From the NCBI GenBank assembly GCA_027486335.1, contig JAIXPK010000571.1, positions 1-55,096 of the forward strand: 55,096 bases of DNA, in the 5' to 3' direction. This document shows, one piece after another, positions 2,126 to 36,515 of this stretch. The stretch comes from Verrucomicrobiaceae bacterium. Lineage in GTDB: Bacteria; Verrucomicrobiota; Verrucomicrobiia; Verrucomicrobiales; V1-33. The translations under genes and the position numbers were made by a program. Positions within the stretch are counted from its first letter, which is position 1. The number at the start of each line of letters is the position of its first letter. The notes under the pieces were generated by a model. The model was not told where the DNA came from. It searched no databases and saw only the letters and a program-made list of their open reading frames with translations.

Positions 2126-5100
2126 ATGAAACCCACGACCCTTCTTATCAGCGCTTTCGCAGCGCTGGGTCTCGTCACTTCATCGCTTGCCGATGTGCCC
2201 ATTTCCTATTCCGTGCCGCGCGACGGCCGCACCTCGCTCGCGATTTATGACCACGAGGGCCGCATGGTGCGAACGATTCTCACCGGCAAACCCCTAGCGA
2301 AAGGTGACCACAGGGAGACATGGGACGGACTCAACCGTTACGGCAACGCGCTACCGTCGGGTGATTACACCTGGAAAGTTCTCTCCACCGATGGTCTGCG
2401 CGCAGAGTTCATCACCCAAGTCGGCCAAAACGCGGATCCGGTTTGGGAGCGGGCGACGGGAAATCACCAGGCCCCGAGCGCCGTGGCCGTGGACGCCACG
2501 GGTTTGTATCGTTTGGGGGCGGTGAATGAGGGTGCCCATTGGGGCGTAAAGACGGACCTCGAAGGACGGCATCTGTGGACGAGTGACCGTTGGGCCAAGG
2601 ATCCGTGGGTGCAGGAAACCGCCGCCGTGACGCTGGTGGGCCAACGGTTATTCGAACTGATGCCAAATGGCGACGTGTACGGCTACGATGCAACGACCGG
2701 CCGCGTCTTCACCGGCGGCGACCGGGATCCGAAGCCATGGATGCTCCGCTGGGAGGGTTTCCAGCCGCCGCCGGATGTGAAAGACGAGCAGCGACTCCGA
2801 CTCAATGCGGAACAGAGTCCGCGCGACCTCGCCGGCGATGCGGCGAACGAGTTGCTGGTCGCCGCTTATCCGCAACATGACGCGCTGGCATGGTTTAGCG
2901 CCAAAAGCGGTAACCTTGTCGACAAGGTAAAGGGAATCGCGAAGCTGACGGGTGTTGCCGTGGCGAAAGACGGGACGGTGTTCGCCATCTCGCAGGGCGC
3001 GGTCGTCGCATTGACGCGGGAAAGCAAAACACCCCGCGAAGTCATCGCCGCGGCCAAGTTGCAAGCCCCGTGGCGACTGTGCGTGAGTGCGACGTCGGGC
3101 GAAATCTTTGTCGCCGAGAACAGCGATCTCGCCAGCTGGGGCGAGAGCGACTCGCGGCATCATCAGGTGAAGCGATTCTCGGCCGTCGGTGCGCTGTTGA
3201 TGACCTATGGTCAGCCGAAAGGCCGCAGCGACGGCGCGTACGTGCCGACGGATTTTCGCGGACTGACGGACATCGAAGCGGATCACGAAGGCGGCTTCGT
3301 CGTGACGGAAGGAAGGGCCCAGCCGCCGCGCCGGTCGGCCCGCTTCGACGCCGCGGGCAAGCTGCTCCGCGAATGGTTTGGCGCGCAGCATTACGGCGTC
3401 ATCGTCTGCCCGGAACCTAACGACCCGCGTTATGTCTGGTTCCGCGCCAATGCGGACCGGCCGGGTCTGGTGCGCTGCGCGGTGGACTACGCGGCGAAAT
3501 CATGGCGAGTCGTGGAGGTGTATCAGGACGTGTTCGGGGCGAACCCATTCGCGGAAGCGCCGATGGTGCCGTATCTCTTCGCGCACGGCGGGCGCATCTA
3601 CATCCACGGCGGCGGCGTGCAGCCGAGCGGGCTTTCCTTGAGCATCTATGATCCCGTCGCCAGGCGCATCCGGCCCTGCAACGCCAGCGGCAAGCACGAT
3701 AAGCGCACGTATCTTTGGAACGACCTGAACGACGACGGACTCGCCAGCGACGACGAAATCCAATGGCTGAACCGCAACAAGCTGGGCGGCTCCGTGATGC
3801 CCGCCGACCTGACGCTGCTGACCACCTCGACGGCGAGCGACTACAGCCCCGGCCCGGTGCTGAGGCCCTCGCGTTTCACCGCCGGAGGCACGCCGGTCTA
3901 TCTGTTTGCCGAGGGGACAGAGTATGAACCGTGGGCGGAAAACGGATGGAAGAAATATCCGGGCGATTTCCGTCAGGCGGCGGACGGTAGCTGGTTCGCC
4001 TGCTTTGCTGAAGGGGCGAGCAACCCGCACGAGGGCGCGGAGTCGCACGGCGCATGGTATTACAATTCATGTTCCGCCATCGACCGGTTGGTGAAGTGGG
4101 ACAAAGACTGGAAGCCGCTCTGGAGCGTCGGCCGGCACAGTCCCGACAACGACCACGAAACCGGTTCCACCGCGATGGCGCGCGGCCTGGTTGGACTCAC
4201 GCACGGCTGCATCGTGTGGGGCGATGCCTCCGATGAAGAAACCTGCCGCCCGACTGTGTGGACCGAGGACGGCCTTTACGTCGACGAACTCCTGCGCGTG
4301 CCGGTGGACAATGTGCCGAAGGAGAAGCACGGCGAGGACAATACTAACGAATATCCGCAAGGCCACCTCTTCACCGACCCAGCGACGGGCGAGACGTTCT
4401 TCTATGCGCTGAACTCCGGCGGCGGCGCGCCCATCTATCGCATCACAGGCTGGAATGGCTGGCATCGCGCAAATGGCAAGATCACGCTGGCTTCGGCAGC
4501 GACGGAGGTGGCGAAACGCGACGGCATCGGTTTGAAGGCCGAATACTTCAACAATGCGGACTGCTCCGGCGAACCGGCGCTCACCCGCACCGACAAGCTC
4601 ATCTATTTCAACTGGGGCAAAAGCTCGCCGGACACAACGATCACCTCCGACATGTTCAGTGTCCGCTGGACCGGCACCTACGAAGCCACGACGAGCGAAG
4701 ACACGCGCTTCGAGCTTCGCGGCAACTTCCCCTGGAGGGACAAAGGCGCACCGCTCTGGTCGCGCCTCTGGCTTGGCGGAGAACTCATCTTCAACTCCAA
4801 GCCCCGCCAGGACAAAGGCAACTCGACCTACGACGCACTGGAGCGCAGCAGCCTCGGCACCGTCAGCGTGAAGCTCCGCGCTGGCGAGCGCCTCGACCTG
4901 CGCATGGAGTGCGGATTCAAGAAGGGCGAAGCAGCCATCGCCCTCAATCACGACACGCCTAGCCTCGACCGCCGCGCCGTGCTGCCCGCCTTCCTGCACC
5001 CCGAACCGGGACCGAAACGAAAGCTCGAATTCCCAGTGCAGAAGCGGCCAGAGCTCATCGCGGAGCTGAGCTTTGAGGAAAAGGACGGCGCGCTTTCATG

Positions 5101-5639
5101 GAGCAACGCCGGGGGCGATGTCTTTGGCCGTCTGACTGGCAACACCCGCCGCGTTCCCGGCAGGACCGGCGGCGCCATTGAGTTCGAAGCCAAGGGCGCG
5201 TTCAAACCCGCGCTGTTCCCCATCGATGAAGAACTCCGCCTGCCCGACACCGACTACACCGTGGCGTTCTGGTTCAAGACGACCGCGCAAAGTCTCCGCC
5301 TCTGCGAAGCGCTACTCCAGCTACAACAACCGCTGGAGCGACCACACCGTTTCACTTGATCAGGGAAAGATTCGTTTTCAGCTCCAAGGGGACGAAGCCC
5401 TCGAAACACTGGCCACCTTCAACGACGGCGAATGGCATCAAGTCATCACCACGGTCGGCCCCGGCGGTCAGCGCCTGCACGTGGACGGCAAACTCATCGC
5501 TACCGGTAAACTCACCAAACGCACCTCCACCAGCAACCGACTTGGCCTCGACCTTGGCCCCGGCAGCGGCGAGGGCATCGTCGCGATGGATGAACTGCGA
5601 GTCCTTGGCCGGGCGCTTCCCGTTGAAGAATCACGGTGA
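2126..5639 (+). CDS. large secreted protein: FlgD-Ig, NHL/beta-propeller, PA14, LamG; frameshifted near 5307
   Basis: SLAIYDHEGRMVRTI...WDGLN (FlgD-Ig); GLKAEYFNN...FNWG...FSVRWTG (PA14). LamG starts in ORF 2126-5359 (YTVAFWFKT) and finishes in frame 5178-5639 (NDGEWHQV...LHVDGKL...MDELRVLGRAL). Confidence 0.8.
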
Positions 5640-28660: not shown

Positions 28661-30088
28661 TCACTGCCGCCCATGCCTGTACACCCAAACGCGGTCAGTC
28701 ATGCCTCCGTGCACCACCAGCACATTCAGTCGCGGGTCGAAGTATCCCTTCGGCTGAGCCCAGTACTTTCCGGCTCCATAGTCCGACGGCGGACAACCGT
28801 CACCAACCGGCGTCACCAGTTCCCACTGATTCGTCGTCAGTGAAAACACCGCCACCCTGCCCTCCTTATTGCCGTCCGTCAGCAGAAACACATCGCTCAC
28901 ACTGTCGTAGGCGAACATGGTCTTCGCATCGTGACACTCCATCGGAATGGCATCATTGAGCCGCGACCACTCATTCTTCACAACATGATAGGCAAAGGTC
29001 GAGGTTCCGATCACCGCGACCATCGTTTTGTGCTTGGGGCTGTAAGCCGTTTGCTGTTCCTCGGTCGGAGCCACCTTGTCCCGAAGCACCAGCGTGTCGA
29101 TCTTCTTCCCGCCATTGGGCTTGAGTTCCGTCCACTCATTGCTCACCACGTCCCACGACCACATCCCATAGGCATGCGGCGAAACATTCTGCGCAGCCAC
29201 GTAATAGATCACCCGTTTCAGCTCGGGAATATAGCACATCGTTGCCCCCATTCCCTCCATGTCCGGCATCGCACCACTCTTCGGGCGCTTGTGAATGATC
29301 CACTGCTTCTTGTCAGGATCGAACATCCAGATACTGCTGTAGGACTTGTCAATCTTCCGGTCGACCTCCGTCAGCGGAACCCCCGTGTACAGGCTCTCCA
29401 GCACCGCCGAATCCGTCGGCGACGCCCCCGTCCCATGAATCATCACGCGCCGATTCGGTTCGTAAACCAGCGTGTCCCACGTATGCACCGGCAGGATCGG
29501 CCCGCCGTGTGTCGTCGTGAAGTAACCGTCCTTGAGCACCACGTTCGCCTTCCACCACGGACGAACTTCCTCAAACCGTTTCCTCTCCTCCGCCGTCATC
29601 GTCGCATCCGGATTCGCCCGCAGCCGTCTCGCTAGGAAAAGCAGCACATCCTTCATCGGCCCGTGATTCCCCCCATCAGGCTCAAAGATCATGTGCCACG
29701 TGTTCGATCCAAGATGGTACTCCCAGACGTCGTTGGACCGGATCGTCTGATGATCGCCCCCATGATAAAGCGCCGTCTGCCGCTCAGGAGCGTACGCCAT
29801 CCGCATCGTGTACCCACGCGTCACCGGGCCAACGGTCTGACACCCGTAAATGTCACTCTTCGCATCAACCTTGAACTTCGGAAGCGCTAGCGCCGTCCGG
29901 TCCCCAAGGCCCGCAATCGCCTGAATCACCGCCGGTTCATCAACATACGGCAACCGCCCTTCCTTCGGCCCCTCCGCCATCACCATCGCCCCGCTGACAA
30001 TCAGGGAATGACATACCCCCGCAAGAATCGCGCGAGCCAGCCCGCCGCGGTGCACACGTTCCAGCTTTGTGAATAGGATTGCCCTCAT
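28661..30088 (-). CDS. secreted Kelch-like beta-propeller protein
   Basis: Repeated NDVWEYHLGSNTW / IWMFDPDKKQW / WSWDVVSNEW / FAYHVVKNEW blades; start at 30088 is uncertain. Confidence 0.7.
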   Translation of the reverse strand: MRAILFTKLERVHRGGLARAILAGVCHSLIVSGAMVMAEGPKEGRLPYVDEPAVIQAIAGLGDRTALALPKFKVDAKSDIYGCQTVGPVTRGYTMRMAYAPERQTALYHGGDHQTIRSNDVWEYHLGSNTWHMIFEPDGGNHGPMKDVLLFLARRLRANPDATMTAEERKRFEEVRPWWKANVVLKDGYFTTTHGGPILPVHTWDTLVYEPNRRVMIHGTGASPTDSAVLESLYTGVPLTEVDRKIDKSYSSIWMFDPDKKQWIIHKRPKSGAMPDMEGMGATMCYIPELKRVIYYVAAQNVSPHAYGMWSWDVVSNEWTELKPNGGKKIDTLVLRDKVAPTEEQQTAYSPKHKTMVAVIGTSTFAYHVVKNEWSRLNDAIPMECHDAKTMFAYDSVSDVFLLTDGNKEGRVAVFSLTTNQWELVTPVGDGCPPSDYGAGKYWAQPKGYFDPRLNVLVVHGGMTDRVWVYRHGRQ

Positions 30089-30179
30089 AGTCCCACCACT
30101 ATGGAACCCAGAGACCACTCCTTCAATCTCAGGAATCCAACCCGACCACGCCATCCAATTGCACCCGCCCATCATCTCG

Positions 30180-30678
30180 AGCTTTCCCCCGCGGAAACGC
30201 CATGCACCGTACCCCCGTGCCTCCAACCGCCGTCCCAGCACCTTCACCCGCCTGCCCTCAATGCGGCGGCTCCATCGCCGTCACCCCGCTCGGCCCTCAG
30301 TGCCCGCAATGCCTCTTCGCCTCCATCGCCGGAGACGCCATCGAACCTCCCTCCGGCAGCCGCAGTTTCGGCGAATACGAACTCCTCGATGTCCTCGGCC
30401 GCGGCGGCATGGGCGTCGTCTACCGCGCATGGCAACCCGCCCTCCAGCGCTCCGTCGCCCTCAAACTCCTCCTCGCAGGCCCCTTCGCCTCACCCGATTT
30501 CGCCCGCCGCTTCCGCCGCGAAGCCCAGGCCGCCGCACGCCTCCGCCACCACGGCATCGTCACCGTCTTCGACCTCGGCGACTGCGACGGCCAACCCTAC
30601 TACACCATGGAACTCATCGAGGGCAGCACCCTCGCCGATTCCGTCCGCTCCGGTCTCCCCTCCCCCGCCACCGCCGCC
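30180..30678 (+). repeat. ~500-bp direct repeat, copy 1 (kinase 5' region)
   Basis: Near-identical by eye to 32639-33140. Confidence 0.95.
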
Positions 30679-30816
30679 CACGCCGCCGAATAACAAGCCA
30701 CCGCCGCCACAAAACGCCTCGTCCCCAACGCCGCTTCCGCACTCCCACCCATCCCCGGTGGCCTGCCCCCCGGCGAAGCCGTCGCATCCATCGTCGTCAC
30801 CACTAGCCCGAAATGA
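30202..30816 (+). pseudogene. deleted/chimeric copy of the Ser/Thr kinase gene
   Basis: Kinase N-lobe only (LGRGGMGVVY, VALK, YYTMELIEG), then jumps to sequence matching 33794-33826, has TAA at 30691, and ends with an unrelated in-frame tail to TGA 30816. Confidence 0.88.
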
Positions 30817-30855
30817 ACCGCCGTCCCCCCTGAGAGACAGCCTTCCCACCACCCC

Positions 30856-32472
30856 ATGAAAACCATCTTCCTGGCCCTTCTCTTCGCCCTCCCGGCTGCC
30901 GCCGCCGATCGGGTCGCCCTCGTCATCGGGAACACCATCTACGATCCTGCCAAACCGAAAGGCACGGCCCCGAATCTCATCACCGCTGACAACGATGCGA
31001 AGGCTCTCGCCGTGCTTTTGGAAAAAACCCTCGCCTTCAAAGTCATCCTGAAAACCGATGCGGCCCTCAATGACATGGCCGATGCAGTGGAGGAATTCAA
31101 AGCCGAAGCCGCGTCCGCAAAAGTCGTCCTCGTCTTCTATGCGGGCCACGGCATCGAGAGTGCCTCGCTAGGGGATAACTTCCTGCTCCCCGTCCAGGCG
31201 AAGCTGGTAAAGGAAGCTCACCTGAAAACCGAAGCATACCCGCTCAAGACTCTGCTGTCCGACGTCCAGCAGCTCTCCGCCGCCACCCGGCTCGTCATCC
31301 TCGACTGCTGCCGGAACAATCCCCTCGAAGGCAGGGCATGGTACGACGCGGAACGCCCCCAGAACGAATACGGCCGCGGTCTCGCCGCCGTCGATTCCAA
31401 GGCGCTTGACCAGTCCACCATGGTCGTGTTCTCCGCCGCCCCGGGAAAACCGGCCAAGGACCGCCTTCTCACCACGGACCTCCACAGCCCATTCGCCGAA
31501 GTACTCATGGCGAAACTCATGGAGTCCGGCAAAAGCTGCGCCCAGATCTTCGGCGAAGTCGAGGAAGCCGTGTTCCTGAAAACCAGCGAGCAGCAACGCC
31601 CGAAAACGTTCCTCAATGGCAATCTCGCCACGTTCACTAGCTTTGTCTTCCGCCCAGGAGGCGGATCGCCTCAGCCGGATGCCGCCACAACCTTCACCAA
31701 TTCGCTGGGCATGAAGTTCGTCCCAGTGCCCGGCACGGAGGTGCTCTTCTGCATCCACGAGACCCGCAGCAAGGATTACGCCGCCTTCACGGCCGACGGG
31801 AATCGTGGTTACACCATGAGAGGGGACAATGCGGAGGAGTGGATGACCGGAGATTTCAGTAAAGTTCCCGTGGGCCGTGGTTCCGGAGAGAAGGCAGAAC
31901 AAAGCGACCATCCAGTGGCCAACGTATCGTGGCTCGACGCCATGGCCTTCTGCGACTGGCTCTCGAAAAAAGAGGGGAAAACCTACCGTCTCCCAACGGA
32001 CCGGGAGTGGAGCGTGGCGGTCGGCATCCCGCAGGAAGGTAACGGGACGCCCAAAGCACTCGATTCCAAGATTGCCGACGTGTATCCATGGGGCGGCGGT
32101 TTCGTGGCGGCTTCCATGCAGGGGAACTATGGGGACTCTACCGCCGAGGCGAAGGGAACCGGGCTCAGCTTTATCAATGGATACCGCGATGGATTTGCCA
32201 CCACGGCACCGGTGATGAGTTTTCCGGCGAACAAGTTCGGACTGTACGACATGGGGGGAAATCTATGGGAATGGTGTTCCGGATGCTTCGACGGGACAGA
32301 TCCCACCGGGAAGTACCGCTCGCTGGCGGATTCCCGCATGGCGCGGGGCGGGTCGTGGCTCAATTTTGATTCCTCGGATCTGCTCTCCTCGTGTCGCATC
32401 TTCGGTCGTCCCTCGCTTCGAAGCGGCAACCGCGGGTTTCGCGTGGTGTTGGTTGGGCGGTCCGGCGGCTAG
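30856..32472 (+). CDS. secreted caspase-family (peptidase C14) protein with C-terminal FGE-sulfatase/CLec domain
   Basis: Signal peptide; RVALVIGN; FYAGHG and ILDCCRNNP catalytic dyad; FTNSLGMKFVPVP, HPVANVSW, YRLPTDREW, GLYDMGGNLWEW, RGGSW...GFRVV. Confidence 0.93.
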   Translation: MKTIFLALLFALPAAAADRVALVIGNTIYDPAKPKGTAPNLITADNDAKALAVLLEKTLAFKVILKTDAALNDMADAVEEFKAEAASAKVVLVFYAGHGIESASLGDNFLLPVQAKLVKEAHLKTEAYPLKTLLSDVQQLSAATRLVILDCCRNNPLEGRAWYDAERPQNEYGRGLAAVDSKALDQSTMVVFSAAPGKPAKDRLLTTDLHSPFAEVLMAKLMESGKSCAQIFGEVEEAVFLKTSEQQRPKTFLNGNLATFTSFVFRPGGGSPQPDAATTFTNSLGMKFVPVPGTEVLFCIHETRSKDYAAFTADGNRGYTMRGDNAEEWMTGDFSKVPVGRGSGEKAEQSDHPVANVSWLDAMAFCDWLSKKEGKTYRLPTDREWSVAVGIPQEGNGTPKALDSKIADVYPWGGGFVAASMQGNYGDSTAEAKGTGLSFINGYRDGFATTAPVMSFPANKFGLYDMGGNLWEWCSGCFDGTDPTGKYRSLADSRMARGGSWLNFDSSDLLSSCRIFGRPSLRSGNRGFRVVLVGRSGG

Positions 32473-32530
32473 GCTCCTACCCTTTGCCTTTTTACCTTTC
32501 TTTGCCTTTGGCTCCGCGCAGCAGCGGAAA
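32344..32530 (+). other. putative DGR variable region plus downstream pyrimidine tract and hairpin
   Basis: Between RGGSW and GFRVV the usually Asn-templated positions are varied codons ending in C/T; followed by CCTTTGCCTTTTTACCTTTCTTTGCCTTTGG and TCCGC-GCAGCA-GCGGA. Confidence 0.6.
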
Positions 32531-32638
32531 AAATCTGGGAAATCCGCGCTATCACAAATAGGCACGCGGCACTGGCGTCGCAACGCACACCAACCGGTGA
32601 TTGAACACGGTCCGCGAACCACCCGCGGGCCATTCTCC

Positions 32639-33140
32639 AGCTTTCCCCCGCCGAAACGCCATGCACCATACCCCCGTGCCCCAACCGCTGCCAGCACCTT
32701 CCCCTTCACCCGCCTGCCCACAGTGCGGCGGCCCCATCGCCGTCACTCCCCTCGGCCCTCAGTGCCCGCAATGCCTCTTCGCCTCCATCGCCGGAGACGC
32801 CATCGAACCTCCCTCCGGCAGCCGCAGCTTCGGCGAATACGAACTCCTCGACGTCCTCGGCCGCGGCGGCATGGGCGTCGTCTACCGCGCATGGCAACCC
32901 GCCCTCCAGCGCTCCGTCGCCCTCAAACTCCTCCTCGCCGGCCCCTTCGCCTCTCCCGATTTCGCCCGCCGCTTCCGCCGCGAAGCCCAGGCCGCCGCCC
33001 GCCTCCGCCACCACGGCATCGTCACCGTCTTCGACCTCGGCGATTGCGACGGCCAACCCTACTACACCATGGAACTCATCGAGGGCAGCACCCTCGCCGA
33101 TTCCCTCCGCTCCGGTCTCCCCTCCCCCGCCACCGCCGCC
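32639..33140 (+). repeat. ~500-bp direct repeat, copy 2
   Basis: Near-identical to 30180-30678. Confidence 0.95.
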
Positions 33141-36100
33141 AGCCTCCTCGAAAAAACCTCCCGCGCCGTCGCCCACGCCCACCAGCAGGGCGTCCTCCAC
33201 CGCGACCTCAAACCTTCTAACATCCTCCTCACCGCCGACGGCGAACCCCGCGTCGCCGACTTCGGCCTCGCCCGCTTCCCCGACGCCCCCGACGACCCCC
33301 AACTCACCCTCTCCACCAGTCTCCTCGGTTCCCCGGCCTACATGGCCCCGGAACTCGCCACCGGCCAACCCGCCACCACCGCCTCCGACATCTACGCCCT
33401 CGGAGCCGTCCTCTACGAACTCCTCACCGGCCGGCCACCCCACCTAGGCAGCAGCCCGCAGGAAATCCTCTCACACGTCCGCGATTCCCCCATCGTCGAC
33501 CCTCGCCGCCTCAACCCTTCCCTCCCCCGCGACCTCGAAACAGTCTGCCTCAAATGCCTCGACCGCGACCCCGACCGCCGCTACGCATCTGCCTCCGCCC
33601 TAGCCGATGACCTCGACCGCTTCGCCCGCCGCGAACCCGTCCTCGCCCGCCCCGTCAGCGCCTTCGGCAAGACATGGCGCTGGTGCCGTCGCTACCCGGC
33701 CCTCGCCAGCGCCCTGACACTTTCCGCCGCCGCACTCGTCGCCGTCGCCATCGTCCTGGCAATTTCCTCGCAACACCAGAAGCGCTCCGCCGACGCCGCC
33801 CGCGCCGCCGAAAAACAAGCCACCGCTCAGCTCCACGCCTCCCTCATCGATCAAGCCCGCGCCGCCCTCCTCTCCACCGACGGCAACCGTCGCTTCCAAT
33901 CCCTCAATCTCCTCCGTAAAGCCAAAGCCCTCGCGCCCTCACCGGACATCGAACGTCTCGCCCTGGCCGCTCTCGCCATCCCCGGCCTCCGCCTCGATCA
34001 AACCCACAACGCCGGCCCCGACGCCCTCCCCCACCCAGCCCCCCTCGGCAACGCATGGTCCGTCCTCTCACACTTCCCCGATCACAGCTCCGTCCAGATC
34101 TTTTTCCCTGACAACTCCCCACCATCCTCGCCTCTCAACCTCCCTCCCGCCCGCGAATTCTCCCGCGCCCCGCTCTCCCCGCTCCTCTCCATGCTCGCCT
34201 TCGAGGGCCGCGACCAATCCCTCCGCGTCTTCCGCCGCTCCGACCAAGCCTGCATCCTCACCGCTCCCCAAACCCGCTGGGCCGCCTTCGCCCCCGACGA
34301 ATCCGCCATCCTCGGCTTCAAAGACGGTAAACTCCTCCGCTTCCTCCTCCCCTCAGGCCTCCCCGACCCCGCATGGTCATCCCCTCGCGCCGACCCGCTC
34401 CTCTACACCCCCCTATCAGAAGTCGTCTTCTCCCCTGACGGCAAATCCCTCGCCACCGCCGGCTCCCAGCGCTCCGCACAACTCCTCGACGCCGTCACCG
34501 GCCAGCGGCTCTGGCGCACCCGCATCCCCGGCAATATCCACTCGTTCGCATGGCACCCTCAGCGGCCAGTCCTCGCCATCATCTGTCAGGACGAAATCGT
34601 CTTCTGCGACGCCTCCTCAGGCCTCCGCACCGGCGGCTGGTCCACCCGCGCCACCGGCGATGTCCTCACCGCCGCCTTCAGCCCCGACGGCCACCTCCTT
34701 CTCACCGCCGGTTGGGACGGCATGGTTCGTCTCCACGACTGGGAACACGCCACCCTCCTCGCCGCCACCCCAGGCATCGGCTCCACCGCCACATGGTCAC
34801 AGGACGGCCTCGGCGTCCTCATCGCCGACACCAACTCGCTCTATCAATGGACCGCCCTCCCCGGCACCGGCCTCTCCACCCTCGGCCGCAAATCCCGCGC
34901 CCGCGCCGTCGAAGCCACGCTCCAATCCTTCGCCTTCGATCGCTCCAGCCGCTGGCTCGCCATCATCAACGGACCTTCCATCGAATGGTGGTCCGCCGAC
35001 GGCCGCCGACGCATGGCCTCCATCCCCTCAGGCCCTGTTTCCTCACTCGCCTTCCACCCTAACGCCGATCTCCTCGTCGTCTCCTCACCGTCCGGCTTCG
35101 CAGGATACCCATGGCGCGAATCCAACAACTCTCTCCTCATCGACCCCGCCCTGACGCTCTGGTCCGGCGGCGACGCCAAACTCTTCTCCTTCAACCCCGA
35201 CGGCTCACGCGTCGCCACATGGTCCGCCTCCCGCTCCCAGCCAGGCAGCGTCCGGCTCCGCTTCCTCCGCACCGGCAACCCATGGCAAGTCACCGCCACC
35301 ACCGATGTCTATAACACCGGCCGCGGCCCGCGCTGGAGCCCCGACAGCCGCTTCATCGCCGACCACTCATGGCACGGCCCCTCCGTCCAGGTCTGGAACC
35401 CGGACGACGGCTCCGAAGTCTTCGGCGGCCCCGTCTCCTCCTCATGGAGCGGTGCCCACTGGTCCCCGGACGGCCTCCTCTGGTCCGCCACCACCTACGG
35501 CGAATCCACCTTCTCCCCCGGCTCGTGGACCGCCTCCCCACTCTCCCCTTCCCCACTCGGCCTCATCCACGCCGCCGCCTTCTCCCCGCTCGGCCTCAAA
35601 GCCACCGCACCCGGCGACCTCGGCGACCTCGCCCTCGAATCATGGCCCGCCCGCCAACCGCTCGTCACATGGCGCCCCGCCCCGGACACCGTCATCCATT
35701 CTCTAGCCTTCTCTAATGACGCCCGACGCCTCGCCATGTCCACCGCCGATGGCCACATCCGGCTCTGGAACCTCGCCGCCTCCGCCGCCGCCCTCCACAA
35801 CGCCGGATTCTCATGGACCGGCCCACCACTCTCCATCCCTAACCTCCCAGAAATCCCTTCCGCCGCCTCCGTCTCCACCCACCCGCCTCTCCCCATCGTC
35901 CCCTCGCCCCCACGCGACCCCGCCACCCCGCCGGAATGCCTCGACCTCTCCCCCGTCGCCAATCTCCAGCTCTCCACCGCATGGTCCAGCGATCCTCTCG
36001 ACCCCAACGCTCCGACGTGGGGCTTCGGTCAACTCTCCCCCGGCACCCACCGCTGGCACGGCATCCCCTTCGACGTCCGCTCCGCCATCCGCCTCGCCGG

Positions 36101-36515
36101 CGGCGGTCTCCTCCTCCGCAATCCCTCCCTGCCCCTCGCCACCAGCATCCCCATCACCAACCTCAAGGCCTCCCGTCTCCACTTCGCCATCGGCTCCATC
36201 ACCGATACCGACGCTGCCACCGTCATCGGTCACCTCATCGTCCACCACGCCTCCGGCTGGCGCTCTGCCATCCCCCTCACCTCCGGCGAATGCGTCAACG
36301 GCTCCCTCCTCACCACCGACGAAGAACCCATCCTAACCGCCCCCTCCCGCATCGGATGGCAATCGCCCGCACCCAGCCTCCCCAATCACCGCACGCTCAT
36401 CTACCAGTCCTCATGGGTGAATCCATGGCCCGCAGAACCCATCACCGCCATCACTTTCTCCTCCACCATGGAAACCGGCGGCCCCATCCTCTTCGCCATC
36501 ACCTCCGAACCCTGA
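32661..36515 (+). CDS. Ser/Thr protein kinase with TM segment, WD40 propeller and C-terminal beta domain
   Basis: CxxC-CxxC N-terminus; GRGGMG, HRDLKPSN, DFGLAR, YMAPE, DIYALG; WD40-like FSPDG/AGWDG/IRLWN. Confidence 0.93.
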   Translation: MHHTPVPQPLPAPSPSPACPQCGGPIAVTPLGPQCPQCLFASIAGDAIEPPSGSRSFGEYELLDVLGRGGMGVVYRAWQPALQRSVALKLLLAGPFASPDFARRFRREAQAAARLRHHGIVTVFDLGDCDGQPYYTMELIEGSTLADSLRSGLPSPATAASLLEKTSRAVAHAHQQGVLHRDLKPSNILLTADGEPRVADFGLARFPDAPDDPQLTLSTSLLGSPAYMAPELATGQPATTASDIYALGAVLYELLTGRPPHLGSSPQEILSHVRDSPIVDPRRLNPSLPRDLETVCLKCLDRDPDRRYASASALADDLDRFARREPVLARPVSAFGKTWRWCRRYPALASALTLSAAALVAVAIVLAISSQHQKRSADAARAAEKQATAQLHASLIDQARAALLSTDGNRRFQSLNLLRKAKALAPSPDIERLALAALAIPGLRLDQTHNAGPDALPHPAPLGNAWSVLSHFPDHSSVQIFFPDNSPPSSPLNLPPAREFSRAPLSPLLSMLAFEGRDQSLRVFRRSDQACILTAPQTRWAAFAPDESAILGFKDGKLLRFLLPSGLPDPAWSSPRADPLLYTPLSEVVFSPDGKSLATAGSQRSAQLLDAVTGQRLWRTRIPGNIHSFAWHPQRPVLAIICQDEIVFCDASSGLRTGGWSTRATGDVLTAAFSPDGHLLLTAGWDGMVRLHDWEHATLLAATPGIGSTATWSQDGLGVLIADTNSLYQWTALPGTGLSTLGRKSRARAVEATLQSFAFDRSSRWLAIINGPSIEWWSADGRRRMASIPSGPVSSLAFHPNADLLVVSSPSGFAGYPWRESNNSLLIDPALTLWSGGDAKLFSFNPDGSRVATWSASRSQPGSVRLRFLRTGNPWQVTATTDVYNTGRGPRWSPDSRFIADHSWHGPSVQVWNPDDGSEVFGGPVSSSWSGAHWSPDGLLWSATTYGESTFSPGSWTASPLSPSPLGLIHAAAFSPLGLKATAPGDLGDLALESWPARQPLVTWRPAPDTVIHSLAFSNDARRLAMSTADGHIRLWNLAASAAALHNAGFSWTGPPLSIPNLPEIPSAASVSTHPPLPIVPSPPRDPATPPECLDLSPVANLQLSTAWSSDPLDPNAPTWGFGQLSPGTHRWHGIPFDVRSAIRLAGGGLLLRNPSLPLATSIPITNLKASRLHFAIGSITDTDAATVIGHLIVHHASGWRSAIPLTSGECVNGSLLTTDEEPILTAPSRIGWQSPAPSLPNHRTLIYQSSWVNPWPAEPITAITFSSTMETGGPILFAITSEP

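What the first reader, a model, noticed from the sequence alone, without database searches (positions are those of the whole stretch)
30856..32530. Caspase-CLec gene that looks like a remote DGR hypermutation target
Seen: an intact His/Cys caspase dyad fused to a C-terminal FGE-sulfatase domain. The last exposed loop reads tgg CTC AAT TTT GAT tcc tcg GAT ctg ctc tcc tcg TGT cgc ATC TTC GGT CGT ccc tcg CTT cga AGC GGC AAC CGC ggg ttt cgc. The capitalised codons fit positions that are Asn in typical templates (RGGSWNN...NRNN...NRNNNxGFR), and all end in C/T; 8 of these 25 codons end in T, unusual for this GC-rich DNA. A CCTTTG-repeat tract and a hairpin containing a GC-GCA-GC triloop follow the stop. 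Established: DGRs randomise template adenines (AAY to NNY) in the C-terminus of CLec/FGE domains and use a downstream hairpin for targeting. Inference: this is a diversified ligand sensor coupled to an exported caspase-like protease, driven in trans because I found no RT or template repeat here.
Basis: partly seen in the sequence, partly recalled or inferred. Interest (0 to 1): 0.82.

Follow-up and report, generated by a model that had tools for sequence, protein, structure and literature searches.

The report
Frozen DGR variable region, caspase-lectin gene
This exported caspase-like protease carries a binding domain whose tip bears the marks of a diversity-generating retroelement, but this genome holds no such element and the tip no longer varies.

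Summary
ORF 30856-32472 (+) encodes 538 aa: a signal-peptide-like start, Peptidase_C14 with the His98/Cys152 dyad, and an FGE-sulfatase (C-type-lectin) domain.

Its last 141 nt (32334-32474) are homologous to genuine DGR variable regions. A same-genus genome (G011) and two same-family genomes (G033, G023) hold RT + Avd + template repeat. Their VRs differ from the TR only at TR adenines (0 of 90-93 other sites). Both G033 targets are caspase-FGE fusions. All 13 window codons aligned to TR Asn codons are NNY. The 16-nt VR end and the 3' flank match those of real VRs.

The claim of hypermutation in trans is not supported. The 93%-complete assembly shows no DGR RT, no G011-type Avd and no template repeat. 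The VR is identical in a second genome with 96.6% DNA identity over 2534 aligned nt. It is also identical in contigs from four studies that carry SNPs just upstream. Two of those runs each have a contig lacking the 96-nt 3' flank.

Verdict: an orphan, frozen VR (about 0.75). It is a new member of a known kind and of moderate interest.

The parts
30856..32472 (+). Caspase-FGE gene, 538 aa, stop TAG at 32470-32472
   Evidence: ORF list and translation. Pfam Peptidase_C14 + FGE-sulfatase. Against the G001 orthologue, 22 codons differ synonymously and 13 non-synonymously, as expected for a gene under purifying selection.
30856..30906 (+). Signal-peptide-like N-terminus (MKTIFLALLFALPAAAA, then DR)
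   Evidence: Read from the translation. No signal-peptide predictor was run, so this is an inference. The same layout occurs in the cassette-linked caspase-FGE targets of G033 and of metagenome locus L052.
30910..31605 (+). Peptidase_C14 (caspase-like) domain, aa 19-250; His98 codon at 31147-31149, Cys152 codon at 31309-31311
   Evidence: Pfam 2.2e-28. H98, G99, D150, C152 and R153 are invariant in 30 of 30 caspase-FGE proteins. The model matches the MALT1 caspase domain 3v4o_A with target-normalised TM 0.80.
31768..32448 (+). FGE-sulfatase / C-type-lectin-fold domain, aa 305-531, without the catalytic Cys pair
   Evidence: Pfam 1.4e-35. PDB sequence hits: SUMF2 1y4j 6e-16, FGE 2aft 1.9e-13, TvpA 2y3c 3.3e-4. 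In the alignment to 2aft, N503 and D508 sit where FGE has residues 336 and 341 (entry titles 'C336S mutant' and 'C341S mutant').
32334..32474 (+). Segment homologous to the DGR VR/TR repeat (orphan variable region)
   Evidence: It is the only match in the own genome to the G011 TR (66% over 149 nt, E 1.6e-15). It aligns in register with G011 VR1, VR2 and TR.
32359..32433 (+). Formerly mutable core: 13 NNY codons (aa 502-504, 508, 513, 515-517, 521, 523-526) at TR-Asn positions
   Evidence: Codon table and statistics. Mismatches to three real TRs are 19-22 of 27-30 at TR adenines and 18-29 of 90-93 elsewhere. There are no differences from G001 or from contigs of four runs.
32459..32474 (+). VR 3' end, IMH-like (GGTCCGGCGGCTAGGC), spanning the stop codon
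   Evidence: Identical to the ends of G011 VR1 and VR2. The TRs of G011, G033 and G023 have A where every VR has the T of TAG. It is the only exact copy in the own genome.
32475..32530 (+). 3' flank: pyrimidine-rich CCCTTTGCC.. tract and short GC hairpin (32513-32528, 6-nt loop)
   Evidence: Aligns with the flanks of 5 cassette-linked VRs and 7 other VR-type genes. Folding is not better than shuffles. X13 and X10 each have a contig that skips 32472-32567.
30175..30680 (+). Upstream copy of a roughly 500-nt direct repeat (5' end of a Ser/Thr kinase gene; truncated ORF 30202..30693)
   Evidence: Repeat families D1 and D3, 94-97% identity, spacing 2459-2462. Seen also in the BLAST against G001. 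Pfam: partial Pkinase.
32634..33140 (+). Downstream copy of the repeat; start of the kinase-WD40 gene 32601..36515

Best explanation
The gene encodes an exported caspase-like protease joined to a non-catalytic FGE-type C-type-lectin domain. The ligand-binding tip of that domain (aa 502-526) was written by a diversity-generating retroelement of the lineage still present in related genomes. In this lineage the cassette (RT, Avd, template repeat) is gone, or was never linked to this copy. The variable region is now an ordinary, fixed coding sequence under purifying selection.

Shown:
- homology of the VR, its 3' end and its flank to real VR/TR pairs;
- the NNY codon footprint;
- hypervariability of exactly these sites among near orthologues;
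- no cassette found in the assembly;
- invariance of the VR across strains.

Inferred:
- that an ancestral cassette diversified this very gene, rather than the 3' module having been grafted on;
- export of the protein;
- the working model that ligand binding by the lectin tip positions or activates the protease.
For: (1) Real DGRs with this VR type exist close by.
- G011:C159 (same genus) has target1, RT (RVT_1 66.7 bits), Avd-like ORF, TR and target2.
- G033:C59 and G023:C640 (same family) have RTs 65-67% identical to it, with a TR and VRs.
- VR versus own TR: 12-21 of 27-30 mismatches at TR adenines and 0 of 90-93 at other sites, in all 5 pairs.

(2) Both G033 targets are Peptidase_C14 + FGE with signal-peptide-like starts, as is the cassette-linked target in metagenome locus L052.

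(3) Window VR versus the three TRs: 22 of 30, 19 of 28 and 19 of 27 mismatches at A sites, against 20 of 90, 18 of 92 and 29 of 93 elsewhere (Fisher p 1e-6 to 6e-4). All 13 of 13 TR-Asn positions are NNY. The 16-nt VR end is identical to G011's and the flank is homologous.

(4) P0001 versus P0003-5: 1-2 of 13 N-sites identical, while the caspase domain is 96-97% identical. Residues that NNY cannot encode (K, E, Q, M, W) make up 9 of 234 at the N-sites of 18 close homologues, against 619 of 3600 in the 200 aa upstream.

(5) No cassette was found in G000.
- RVT_1 gives one sub-threshold hit, which is a Drt3a/Drt3b fragment.
- A profile of 14 DGR-type RTs run over 60,108 six-frame ORFs hits only that fragment.
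- tblastn with the G011 RT and Avd finds nothing (best E 4.4 and 1.5).
- No repeat of 32200-32560 turns up even with 7-nt words.

(6) The VR is frozen.
- There are 0 differences across 32315-32464 against G001, with 96.6% identity over 2534 nt.
- There are 0 differences in the VR in contigs of 4 runs from 4 studies. Two of them carry 4-8 SNPs between 31782 and 32314.
Against: - The assembly is 93% complete and lies in 573 contigs. A cassette on an unbinned or unassembled contig cannot be excluded.
- Only Logan contigs could be laid, not raw reads, and contigs drop rare variants. Low-frequency VR diversity is therefore untested.
- The FGE half has few SNPs overall between G000 and G001: 7 in about 700 nt. 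Zero in 150 nt is therefore not significant on its own.
- The VR 3' end is intact and all 13 N-site codons are still NNY, so the sequence itself shows no decay.
- One PF05635 (Avd-family) ORF exists elsewhere in the genome, at C432, with an internal TAG. It is unrelated to the G011 Avd by tblastn. No RT was found there by the genome-wide RT searches; I listed its neighbouring ORFs but did not annotate them.
Confidence: 0.75

Rival explanations
1. It is an active remote target. A DGR cassette of this population lies outside the assembled bin (an unbinned contig, plasmid or phage) and still rewrites 32359-32433 in trans.
For: Remote targets are an established DGR mode (passages of PMC7517822, and PMC8144416). 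The VR 3' end is identical to that of an active-looking relative and the flank is present. The genome is incomplete. Near orthologues differ at the N-sites, so activity was recent.
Against: - No RT, G011-type Avd or TR was found in G000.
- G001 (94% complete) has no RT by RVT_1 or by the G011 RT protein. Its only match to the G011 TR is a paralogue's VR at 70% identity.
- The VR is identical in G000, G001 and the contigs of four studies.
- X13 and X10 each have a contig lacking the 96-nt flank.
- No TR-like partner turned up in 401 genomes of the order. The best non-orthologue match was 79%, but only 2 candidates were scored per genome.
- No close relative of this RT lineage was found in viral contigs: the best of 7 loci was 38% identical.
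Confidence: 0.13
2. The VR was never diversified in this gene. The FGE-VR-flank module was written at a DGR locus in a paralogue (for example a DnaJ-FGE gene) and reached the caspase gene by recombination or gene conversion, already fixed. This is a sub-case of the orphan reading.
For: The FGE domain is far more diverged than the caspase domain in the same proteins (77-79% against 96-97%). P0001's FGE domain is as close to the DnaJ-FGE paralogue P0011 (202 of 249) as to its own orthologues (191-193 of 244-249). In the FGE tree, caspase-linked and other rows mix inside one clade with 100/99 support. A 500-nt duplication brackets the gene.
Against: Inside that clade P0001/P0002 group with the caspase-linked P0005 (95/90) and the rest is unresolved, so the tree does not require a swap. 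P0003-5 each have different N-site residues on near-identical caspase domains. That is most simply explained by diversification in place.
Confidence: 0.1
3. It is ordinary loop variability of FGE domains and the DGR-like pattern is coincidental.
For: RGGSW...GFR is the general FGE-family scaffold. Other FGE paralogues in this genome share it.
Against: - There is nucleotide-level homology to TR/VR pairs, including the VR end and the flank.
- 13 of 13 codons are NNY.
- K/E/Q/M/W are depleted at the N-sites: 63 of 1222 against 3806 of 18746 in 94 homologues.
- The other 21 FGE C-termini printed from this genome lack the VR-type C-terminus and IMH-like end. Only three tandem domains on C147 carry an LSSS/DSSS-like stretch in the scaffold.
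Confidence: 0.02

Closest known systems
DGR loci of G011:C159 (same genus), G033:C59 and G023:C640 (same family), found here
   Same: The VR scaffold is the same (RGGSW-x4-..-LLSS-x-R-x4-P-xx-R-x4-GFRVV). The VR end GGCGGCTAGGC and the pyrimidine-rich flank with a CCGC-NNN-GCGG hairpin are shared. The G033 targets have the same architecture: signal peptide, caspase, FGE.
   Different: Those loci carry RT, Avd and a TR within 3 kb of the VR, and their VRs differ from the TR only at adenines. The window gene has none of these within reach or in the assembly. It also differs from every TR at 20-31% of non-adenine sites.
Cyanobacterial orthocaspase-CLec variable proteins, remote VPs and 'VP homologs' (Vallota-Eastman et al. 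2020, PMC7517822; passages read)
   Same: An N-terminal orthocaspase-like peptidase is grafted to a C-terminal CLec domain with the VR at the 3' end. That paper also describes paralogues lacking TR homology as 'VP homologs'.
   Different: The phylum is different: source names of homologues say Verrucomicrobiae, Verrucomicrobiaceae and Prosthecobacter. This protein has a signal-peptide-like start, whereas that paper predicts most cyanobacterial VPs to be cytosolic. Its supplementary tables could not be seen.
TvpA, Treponema denticola variable protein 1 (PDB 2y3c); FGE-sulfatase-type CLec1 targets, category b of Wu et al. 2018 (PMC5758913; passages read)
   Same: An FGE-subclass C-type-lectin fold without formylglycine-generating residues, with the VR at the C-terminus. 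P0001 aa 449-530 match 2y3c at E 3.3e-4.
   Different: TvpA has a cassette and no protease domain. The sequence similarity is weak.
Bordetella phage BPP-1 target elements: IMH and hairpin/cruciform (Guo et al. 2011, PMC3240598; passages read)
   Same: A GC-rich VR 3' end that differs from the TR end by a few bases, with an inverted repeat downstream of the VR.
   Different: The described hairpins have 7-10 bp stems and 4-nt GRNA loops, 4-34 bp from the VR. The window has a 4-5 bp stem and a 6-nt loop about 40 nt from the VR end. In BPP-1, shortening the stem by 2 bp or lengthening the loop by 2 nt abolished function.
Formylglycine-generating enzyme (human SUMF1/SUMF2; true FGE paralogues in this genome at C114 and C158)
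   Same: The fold and Pfam family are the same.
   Different: FGE has the Cys pair (CxxxxC, visible in C114 and C158). P0001 has N503 and D508 at those positions, and both are templated VR sites.

Membership tests
Diversity-generating retroelement system (functional, in this genome) | DGR-type reverse transcriptase | tested here: not met
   RVT_1 gives one hit at 19.8 bits, below the cut-off of 29.6, and it is a Drt3a/Drt3b fragment. A profile of 14 DGR-type RTs finds only that fragment among 60,108 ORFs. tblastn with the G011 RT has best E 4.4. The assembly is 93% complete.
Diversity-generating retroelement system (functional, in this genome) | Template repeat matching the VR except at adenines | tested here: not met
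   There is only a self-match for 32300-32560. blastn with 7-nt words finds paralogue hits only upstream of the VR. The G011 TR hits only the window VR.
Diversity-generating retroelement system (functional, in this genome) | Accessory protein (Avd) | tested here: not met
   The G011 Avd has homologues beside the RTs of G023, G033, L052, L069, L071 and L110, with a weak partial match in L080, but none in G000 (best E 1.5). One unrelated PF05635 ORF with an internal TAG lies on C432.
Diversity-generating retroelement system (functional, in this genome) | Ongoing VR variation between or within populations | tested here: not met
   There are 0 differences in the VR against G001 and in contigs of 4 runs from 4 studies. 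Rare within-population variants are not testable with contigs.
DGR variable-protein lineage (VR-type FGE/CLec target, by descent) | VR homologous to VR/TR of a bona fide DGR, with mismatches enriched at TR adenines | tested here: met
   Mismatches are 19-22 of 27-30 at A sites against 18-29 of 90-93 elsewhere, versus three TRs. Alignments are in register.
DGR variable-protein lineage (VR-type FGE/CLec target, by descent) | NNY codons at templated Asn positions | tested here: met
   13 of 13. Across the family, non-NNY residues are depleted at these sites.
DGR variable-protein lineage (VR-type FGE/CLec target, by descent) | VR 3' end (IMH-like) distinct from the TR end | tested here: met
   GGTCCGGCGGCTAGGC at 32459-32474 equals the G011 VR ends. 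The TRs have A in place of the T.
DGR variable-protein lineage (VR-type FGE/CLec target, by descent) | Downstream hairpin/cruciform (7-10 bp GC stem, 4-nt GRNA loop, 4-34 bp from the VR; PMC3240598) | tested here: inconclusive
   The published form is not present. A 4-5 bp stem with a 6-nt loop sits at the position of the CCGC-NNN-GCGG hairpins of related real VRs. Folding gives z -0.13. The stem is invariant, so there is no covariation to count.
C-type-lectin / FGE-sulfatase fold | Pfam FGE-sulfatase match and fold similarity to FGE and TvpA | tested here: met
   123.6 bits. PDB sequence hits. Foldseek matches to FGE structures have target-normalised TM 0.48-0.57. Model mean pLDDT is 78.
Formylglycine-generating enzyme (catalytic) | Active-site Cys pair (human C336/C341) | tested here: not met
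   N503 and D508 align to those positions. The residue numbering comes from PDB entry titles.
Peptidase C14 (caspase/orthocaspase) | His/Cys catalytic dyad in a p20-like fold | tested here: met
   The AGHG and DCCR motifs are present, and H98 and C152 are invariant in 30 of 30. Pfam 100 bits. MALT1 caspase domain, TM 0.80. Activity itself was not tested.

The most novel reading that the evidence does not exclude
Orphan VR-type genes like this one are not dead ends but standby targets. They keep the VR 3' end and flank intact, so a compatible cassette arriving by horizontal transfer (or one held by only part of the population) could resume rewriting them. The cassette is sporadic in this genus. 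Of the 4 searched relatives in the genus that hold a VR-type match to the window's VR (G001, G002, G011, G013), only G011 has a full RT of this lineage, and G002 keeps an RT remnant. VR-type genes outnumbering cassettes would then reflect a cassette that comes and goes over a persistent repertoire of exported caspase-lectin and DnaJ-lectin sensors.
Probability: 0.12. Interest if true: 0.6.

Novelty: new member of a known kind. Interest (0 to 1): 0.35.

Why it matters
It shows that a DGR footprint can be recognised from sequence alone in a gene that has no cassette nearby. It also shows that such a footprint is not proof of present hypermutation. Surveys that detect DGRs only through an RT next to a VR, as noted in PMC8144416, would miss genes of this kind.

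In this Verrucomicrobiaceae-like group the finding extends the exported caspase plus C-type-lectin target architecture beyond cyanobacteria. It also documents stages of cassette loss:
- G011 has a full cassette;
- G002 keeps only an RT remnant;
- the window's genome has none;
- some strains have lost the VR flank as well.

If the frozen tip still binds a ligand, the protein is a natural, selected output of a diversification run. That makes it a candidate for finding what such caspase-lectin sensors recognise.

Tried and rejected
- The weak RVT_1 hit on C541 was followed up. It consists of Drt3a/Drt3b defence-RT fragments, not a DGR RT.
- The PF05635 ORF on C432 is unrelated to the lineage's Avd, and no RT was found there by the genome-wide RT searches. 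I listed its neighbouring ORFs but did not annotate them.
- DNA folding of eight VR flanks gave no energy better than shuffles. Only one of the eight reached z -1.76, so I make no structural claim beyond positional homology.
- A terminator or promoter scan of 30000-33000 gave nothing usable behind the gene.
- I tried to obtain the DNA of the 80%-identical orthologues P0003-5. The metagenome scan returned only paralogues (L048 and L049, no RT on their 7-10 kb contigs) and more distant loci. Whether those orthologues sit beside a cassette remains open.
- I tested for domain swapping of the FGE module with a tree. It was unresolved inside the key clade.
- G001:C282 holds only a tandem pair of DnaJ-FGE paralogues with no TR.
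- G011:C473 matched the TR at 73%. It is an FGE gene whose 3' end runs on like a TR flank, not a clean remote VR, and I did not resolve it.
- RNA evidence: none of the 20 holder rows is on record as RNA, so expression is untested.
Full report
WHAT IS THERE. The ORF 30856..32472 (+) encodes 538 aa. Pfam finds Peptidase_C14 at aa 19-250 (2.2e-28) and FGE-sulfatase at aa 305-531 (1.4e-35). The N-terminus, MKTIFLALLFALPAAAA followed by DR, reads as a Sec signal peptide. That is an inference from the sequence, because no predictor was available. H98 (in AGHG) and C152 (in DCCR) are invariant in 30 of 30 aligned caspase-FGE proteins. An AlphaFold model (mean pLDDT 78) matches the MALT1 caspase domain (3v4o_A, target-normalised TM 0.80). 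It also matches FGE structures (TM 0.48-0.57).

By sequence the C-terminal domain hits SUMF2, FGE and, weakly, the Treponema DGR target TvpA (2y3c, E 3.3e-4). In the alignment to human FGE, N503 and D508 occupy the positions of the catalytic cysteines 336 and 341 (numbering from PDB titles). The domain is therefore a binding module and not an enzyme. True FGE paralogues with CxxxxC exist elsewhere in the genome, at C114 and C158.

THE OBSERVATION. The quoted codons are exact. The stretch W501..R529 has 29 codons, of which 9 end in T. In the rest of the gene 12% of codons end in T (P=0.006). All 15 capitalised codons end in C or T. The CCTTTG tract and a small GC inverted repeat follow the stop. 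The hairpin is weak: a 4-5 bp stem with a 6-nt loop, and the flank folds no better than shuffles (z -0.13).

IS IT A DGR VARIABLE REGION? Searching relatives with the protein and with RVT_1 turned up a canonical DGR in a same-genus genome, G011:C159. It has the following parts:
- an FGE target with VR1 at 3236-3376;
- a convergent RT of 356 aa (RVT_1 66.7 bits);
- a divergent Avd-like ORF;
- a TR at 5017-5157;
- a second FGE target with VR2.

RTs 65-67% identical to this one lie in two same-family genomes, G033:C59 and G023:C640. Each has a TR and VRs about 295 nt apart. In all five VR/TR pairs the mismatches fall only at TR adenines: 12-21 of 27-30 adenine sites, and 0 of 90-93 other sites. 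Both G033 targets are Peptidase_C14 + FGE proteins with signal-peptide-like starts. So is a cassette-linked target on a metagenome contig, L052.

The three TRs translate to RGGSW-NNN(D)..N-LLSS-(N/Y)-R-NN(N/D).P..R-N(N/D)N(N/I)-GFR.

The window's last 141 nt (32334-32474) align in register with these repeats. They are the only match to the G011 TR in the own genome (66% over 149 nt, E 1.6e-15). Against the three TRs the window differs at 22 of 30, 19 of 28 and 19 of 27 adenine sites. At other sites it differs at only 20 of 90, 18 of 92 and 29 of 93 (Fisher p 1e-6 to 6e-4). All 13 codons aligned to G011 TR Asn codons are NNY (P=8e-4). Six of them end in T (P=0.003).

The VR end, GGTCCGGCGGCTAGGC (32459-32474), is identical to the ends of G011 VR1 and VR2. 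In G011, G033 and G023 the TR has A where every VR has the T of the stop codon. The 3' flank aligns with the flanks of 5 cassette-linked VRs and 7 other VR-type genes. The shared parts are CTCCTACCCTTTGCC, TTTTTACC, and then (C/T)CCGC-loop-GCGG. Relative to them the window and G001 carry a 3-nt insertion that turns the triloop into a 6-nt loop.

Near orthologues confirm the footprint. P0003-5 are 96-97% identical to P0001 in the caspase domain but share only 1-2 of the 13 templated residues. At these sites, residues that NNY cannot encode (K, E, Q, M, W) make up 9 of 234 in 18 close homologues. The background is 619 of 3600. In 94 homologues the figures are 63 of 1222 against 3806 of 18746. 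For the 94-homologue count I dropped P0001 and P0002. Another 25 of the 121 held proteins did not match the fixed-length scaffold pattern. Related sequences are not independent, so these P values overstate the case.

IS IT BEING DIVERSIFIED NOW? The own assembly (5.8 Mb, 573 contigs, 93% complete) gives the following.
- No second copy of 32300-32560.
- No repeat over the VR with 7-nt-word blastn. The only hits are paralogue matches to the conserved GLYDMGGNLWEW region.
- One sub-threshold RVT_1 hit, which is a fragmentary Drt3a/Drt3b defence RT.
- Nothing else with a profile built from 14 DGR-type RTs against 60,108 six-frame ORFs.
- Nothing by tblastn with the G011 RT or Avd.
- No other FGE paralogue with this VR-type C-terminus and IMH-like end, among the 21 other C-termini printed. 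Only three tandem domains on C147 carry an LSSS/DSSS-like stretch.

G001 has a 98%-identical orthologue and is 94% complete. It has no RT by RVT_1 and none by the G011 RT protein. Over 2534 aligned nt the two genomes differ at 85 alignment columns (74 substitutions, the rest gaps), with none between 32315 and 32464. Within the gene, 22 codons differ synonymously and 13 non-synonymously.

Contigs from four runs of four studies cover the VR. X3 and X5 are identical to the window throughout the gene part that was laid. X10 and X13 carry 4 and 8 differences between 31782 and 32314 but none in the VR. X13 and X10 each have a contig that skips 32472-32567, which is the whole 3' flank.

A DNA search with 32326-32500 in 401 genomes of the order found matches in 13. 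The best match other than the orthologue was 79% (a G001 paralogue), and none looked like a template. Only two candidates were scored per genome. The RT lineage has no close relative in viral contigs: the best of 7 loci was 38% identical.

Caveats. Contigs hide rare variants. The FGE half has few SNPs anyway, 7 in about 700 nt. A cassette could also lie in the missing 7% of the genome.

DISTRIBUTION. In the family search with the G011 RT, 18 of 38 genomes had some match at E<=1e-10. Only G011, G023 and G033 had matches at 65% identity or more. G002 (same genus) keeps just a 73-residue C-terminal RT remnant, convergent with an FGE gene. That gene still has a VR-type end and flank. G001 has three VR-type genes and G013 at least one, with no RT found. 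Orphan VR-type genes are thus commoner than cassettes in the genomes searched.

HOW IT MOST LIKELY WORKS. The shown and inferred steps are listed under the best explanation. My reading is as follows. An exported caspase-like protease is tethered to a lectin-fold binding domain. The tip of that domain was randomised at 13 or more positions by adenine-specific mutagenic retrohoming in an ancestor, and one variant became fixed after the cassette was lost. I give this about 0.75. The route may have been loss of the cassette or grafting of an already written module, and the tree does not decide between them. An active remote target remains possible, at about 0.13.

WHAT IS KNOWN. I read passages only of the papers below, and their supplements were closed.
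- FGE-sulfatase-type CLec targets are the largest target class in Wu et al. 2018 (PMC5758913).
- Orthocaspase-CLec variable proteins, remote VPs and 'VP homologs' without TR similarity are described for cyanobacteria (PMC7517822).
- Caspase-like effectors near DGR targets in multicellular bacteria are described in PMC10907252.
- The hairpin requirement is described in PMC3240598.
- Metacaspase plus FGE-sulfatase architectures appear, by a search listing only, in PMC3501461.

I did not find caspase or peptidase mentioned in the main text of PMC8144416. My two searches on this topic returned no paper on verrucomicrobial caspase-FGE DGR targets or on orphan VRs. That is weak evidence of absence from print.

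VERDICT. The DGR origin of the segment is well supported, but present trans-hypermutation is not. It is a new member of a known kind, with interest about 0.35.

Noticed in passing
window 30175-30680 and 32634-33140: A direct repeat of about 500 nt (94-97% identity, spacing about 2460) brackets the caspase-FGE gene. It is the 5' end of the Ser/Thr kinase-WD40 gene 32601..36515. The upstream copy is a truncated 163-aa kinase ORF (30202..30693). In G001 the upstream copy is present, but the downstream gene diverges after about 60 nt.
   Followed up: partly
window 32472-32567: A 96-nt deletion polymorphism removes the whole VR 3' flank. It is seen in one contig each of runs X13 (depth 11.5) and X10 (depth 4.9).
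   Followed up: no
G000:C541 (L002) 1074-2295: A low-GC islet holds fragments of a DRT type 3 defence system: 226 aa of Drt3a and the C-terminal 205 aa of Drt3b, apparently degraded.
   Followed up: partly
L042 (G033:C59) 3285-4958: The divergent avd-RT pair is inverted relative to G011 and G023, so the TR lies downstream of the RT on the opposite strand. Both VRs nevertheless differ from the TR only at adenines.
   Followed up: no
L045 (G002:C47) about 2215-2650: Only the last 73 or so residues of a DGR RT remain, convergent with an FGE gene that still has a VR-type end and flank. This looks like a cassette caught in decay in the same genus.
   Followed up: partly
L128 (G011:C473) about 1660-1900: An FGE gene has a C-terminal region matching the G011 TR at 73%. 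It then reads on, without a stop, into sequence resembling the spacer downstream of the TRs of G011 and G023. It may be a second, degenerate template or a fused remnant.
   Followed up: no
P0001 vs P0003-P0005 (proteins): Within the same protein the FGE domain is 77-79% identical outside the templated sites, while the caspase domain is 96-97% identical. P0003-5 also carry a linker insertion of about 30-40 aa that P0001 and P0002 lack.
   Followed up: partly
L029 (G011:C159) 5240-5485 (-): An 81-aa ORF lies between VR2 and the TR. It has no homologue in the other loci or in G000 by tblastn.
   Followed up: no
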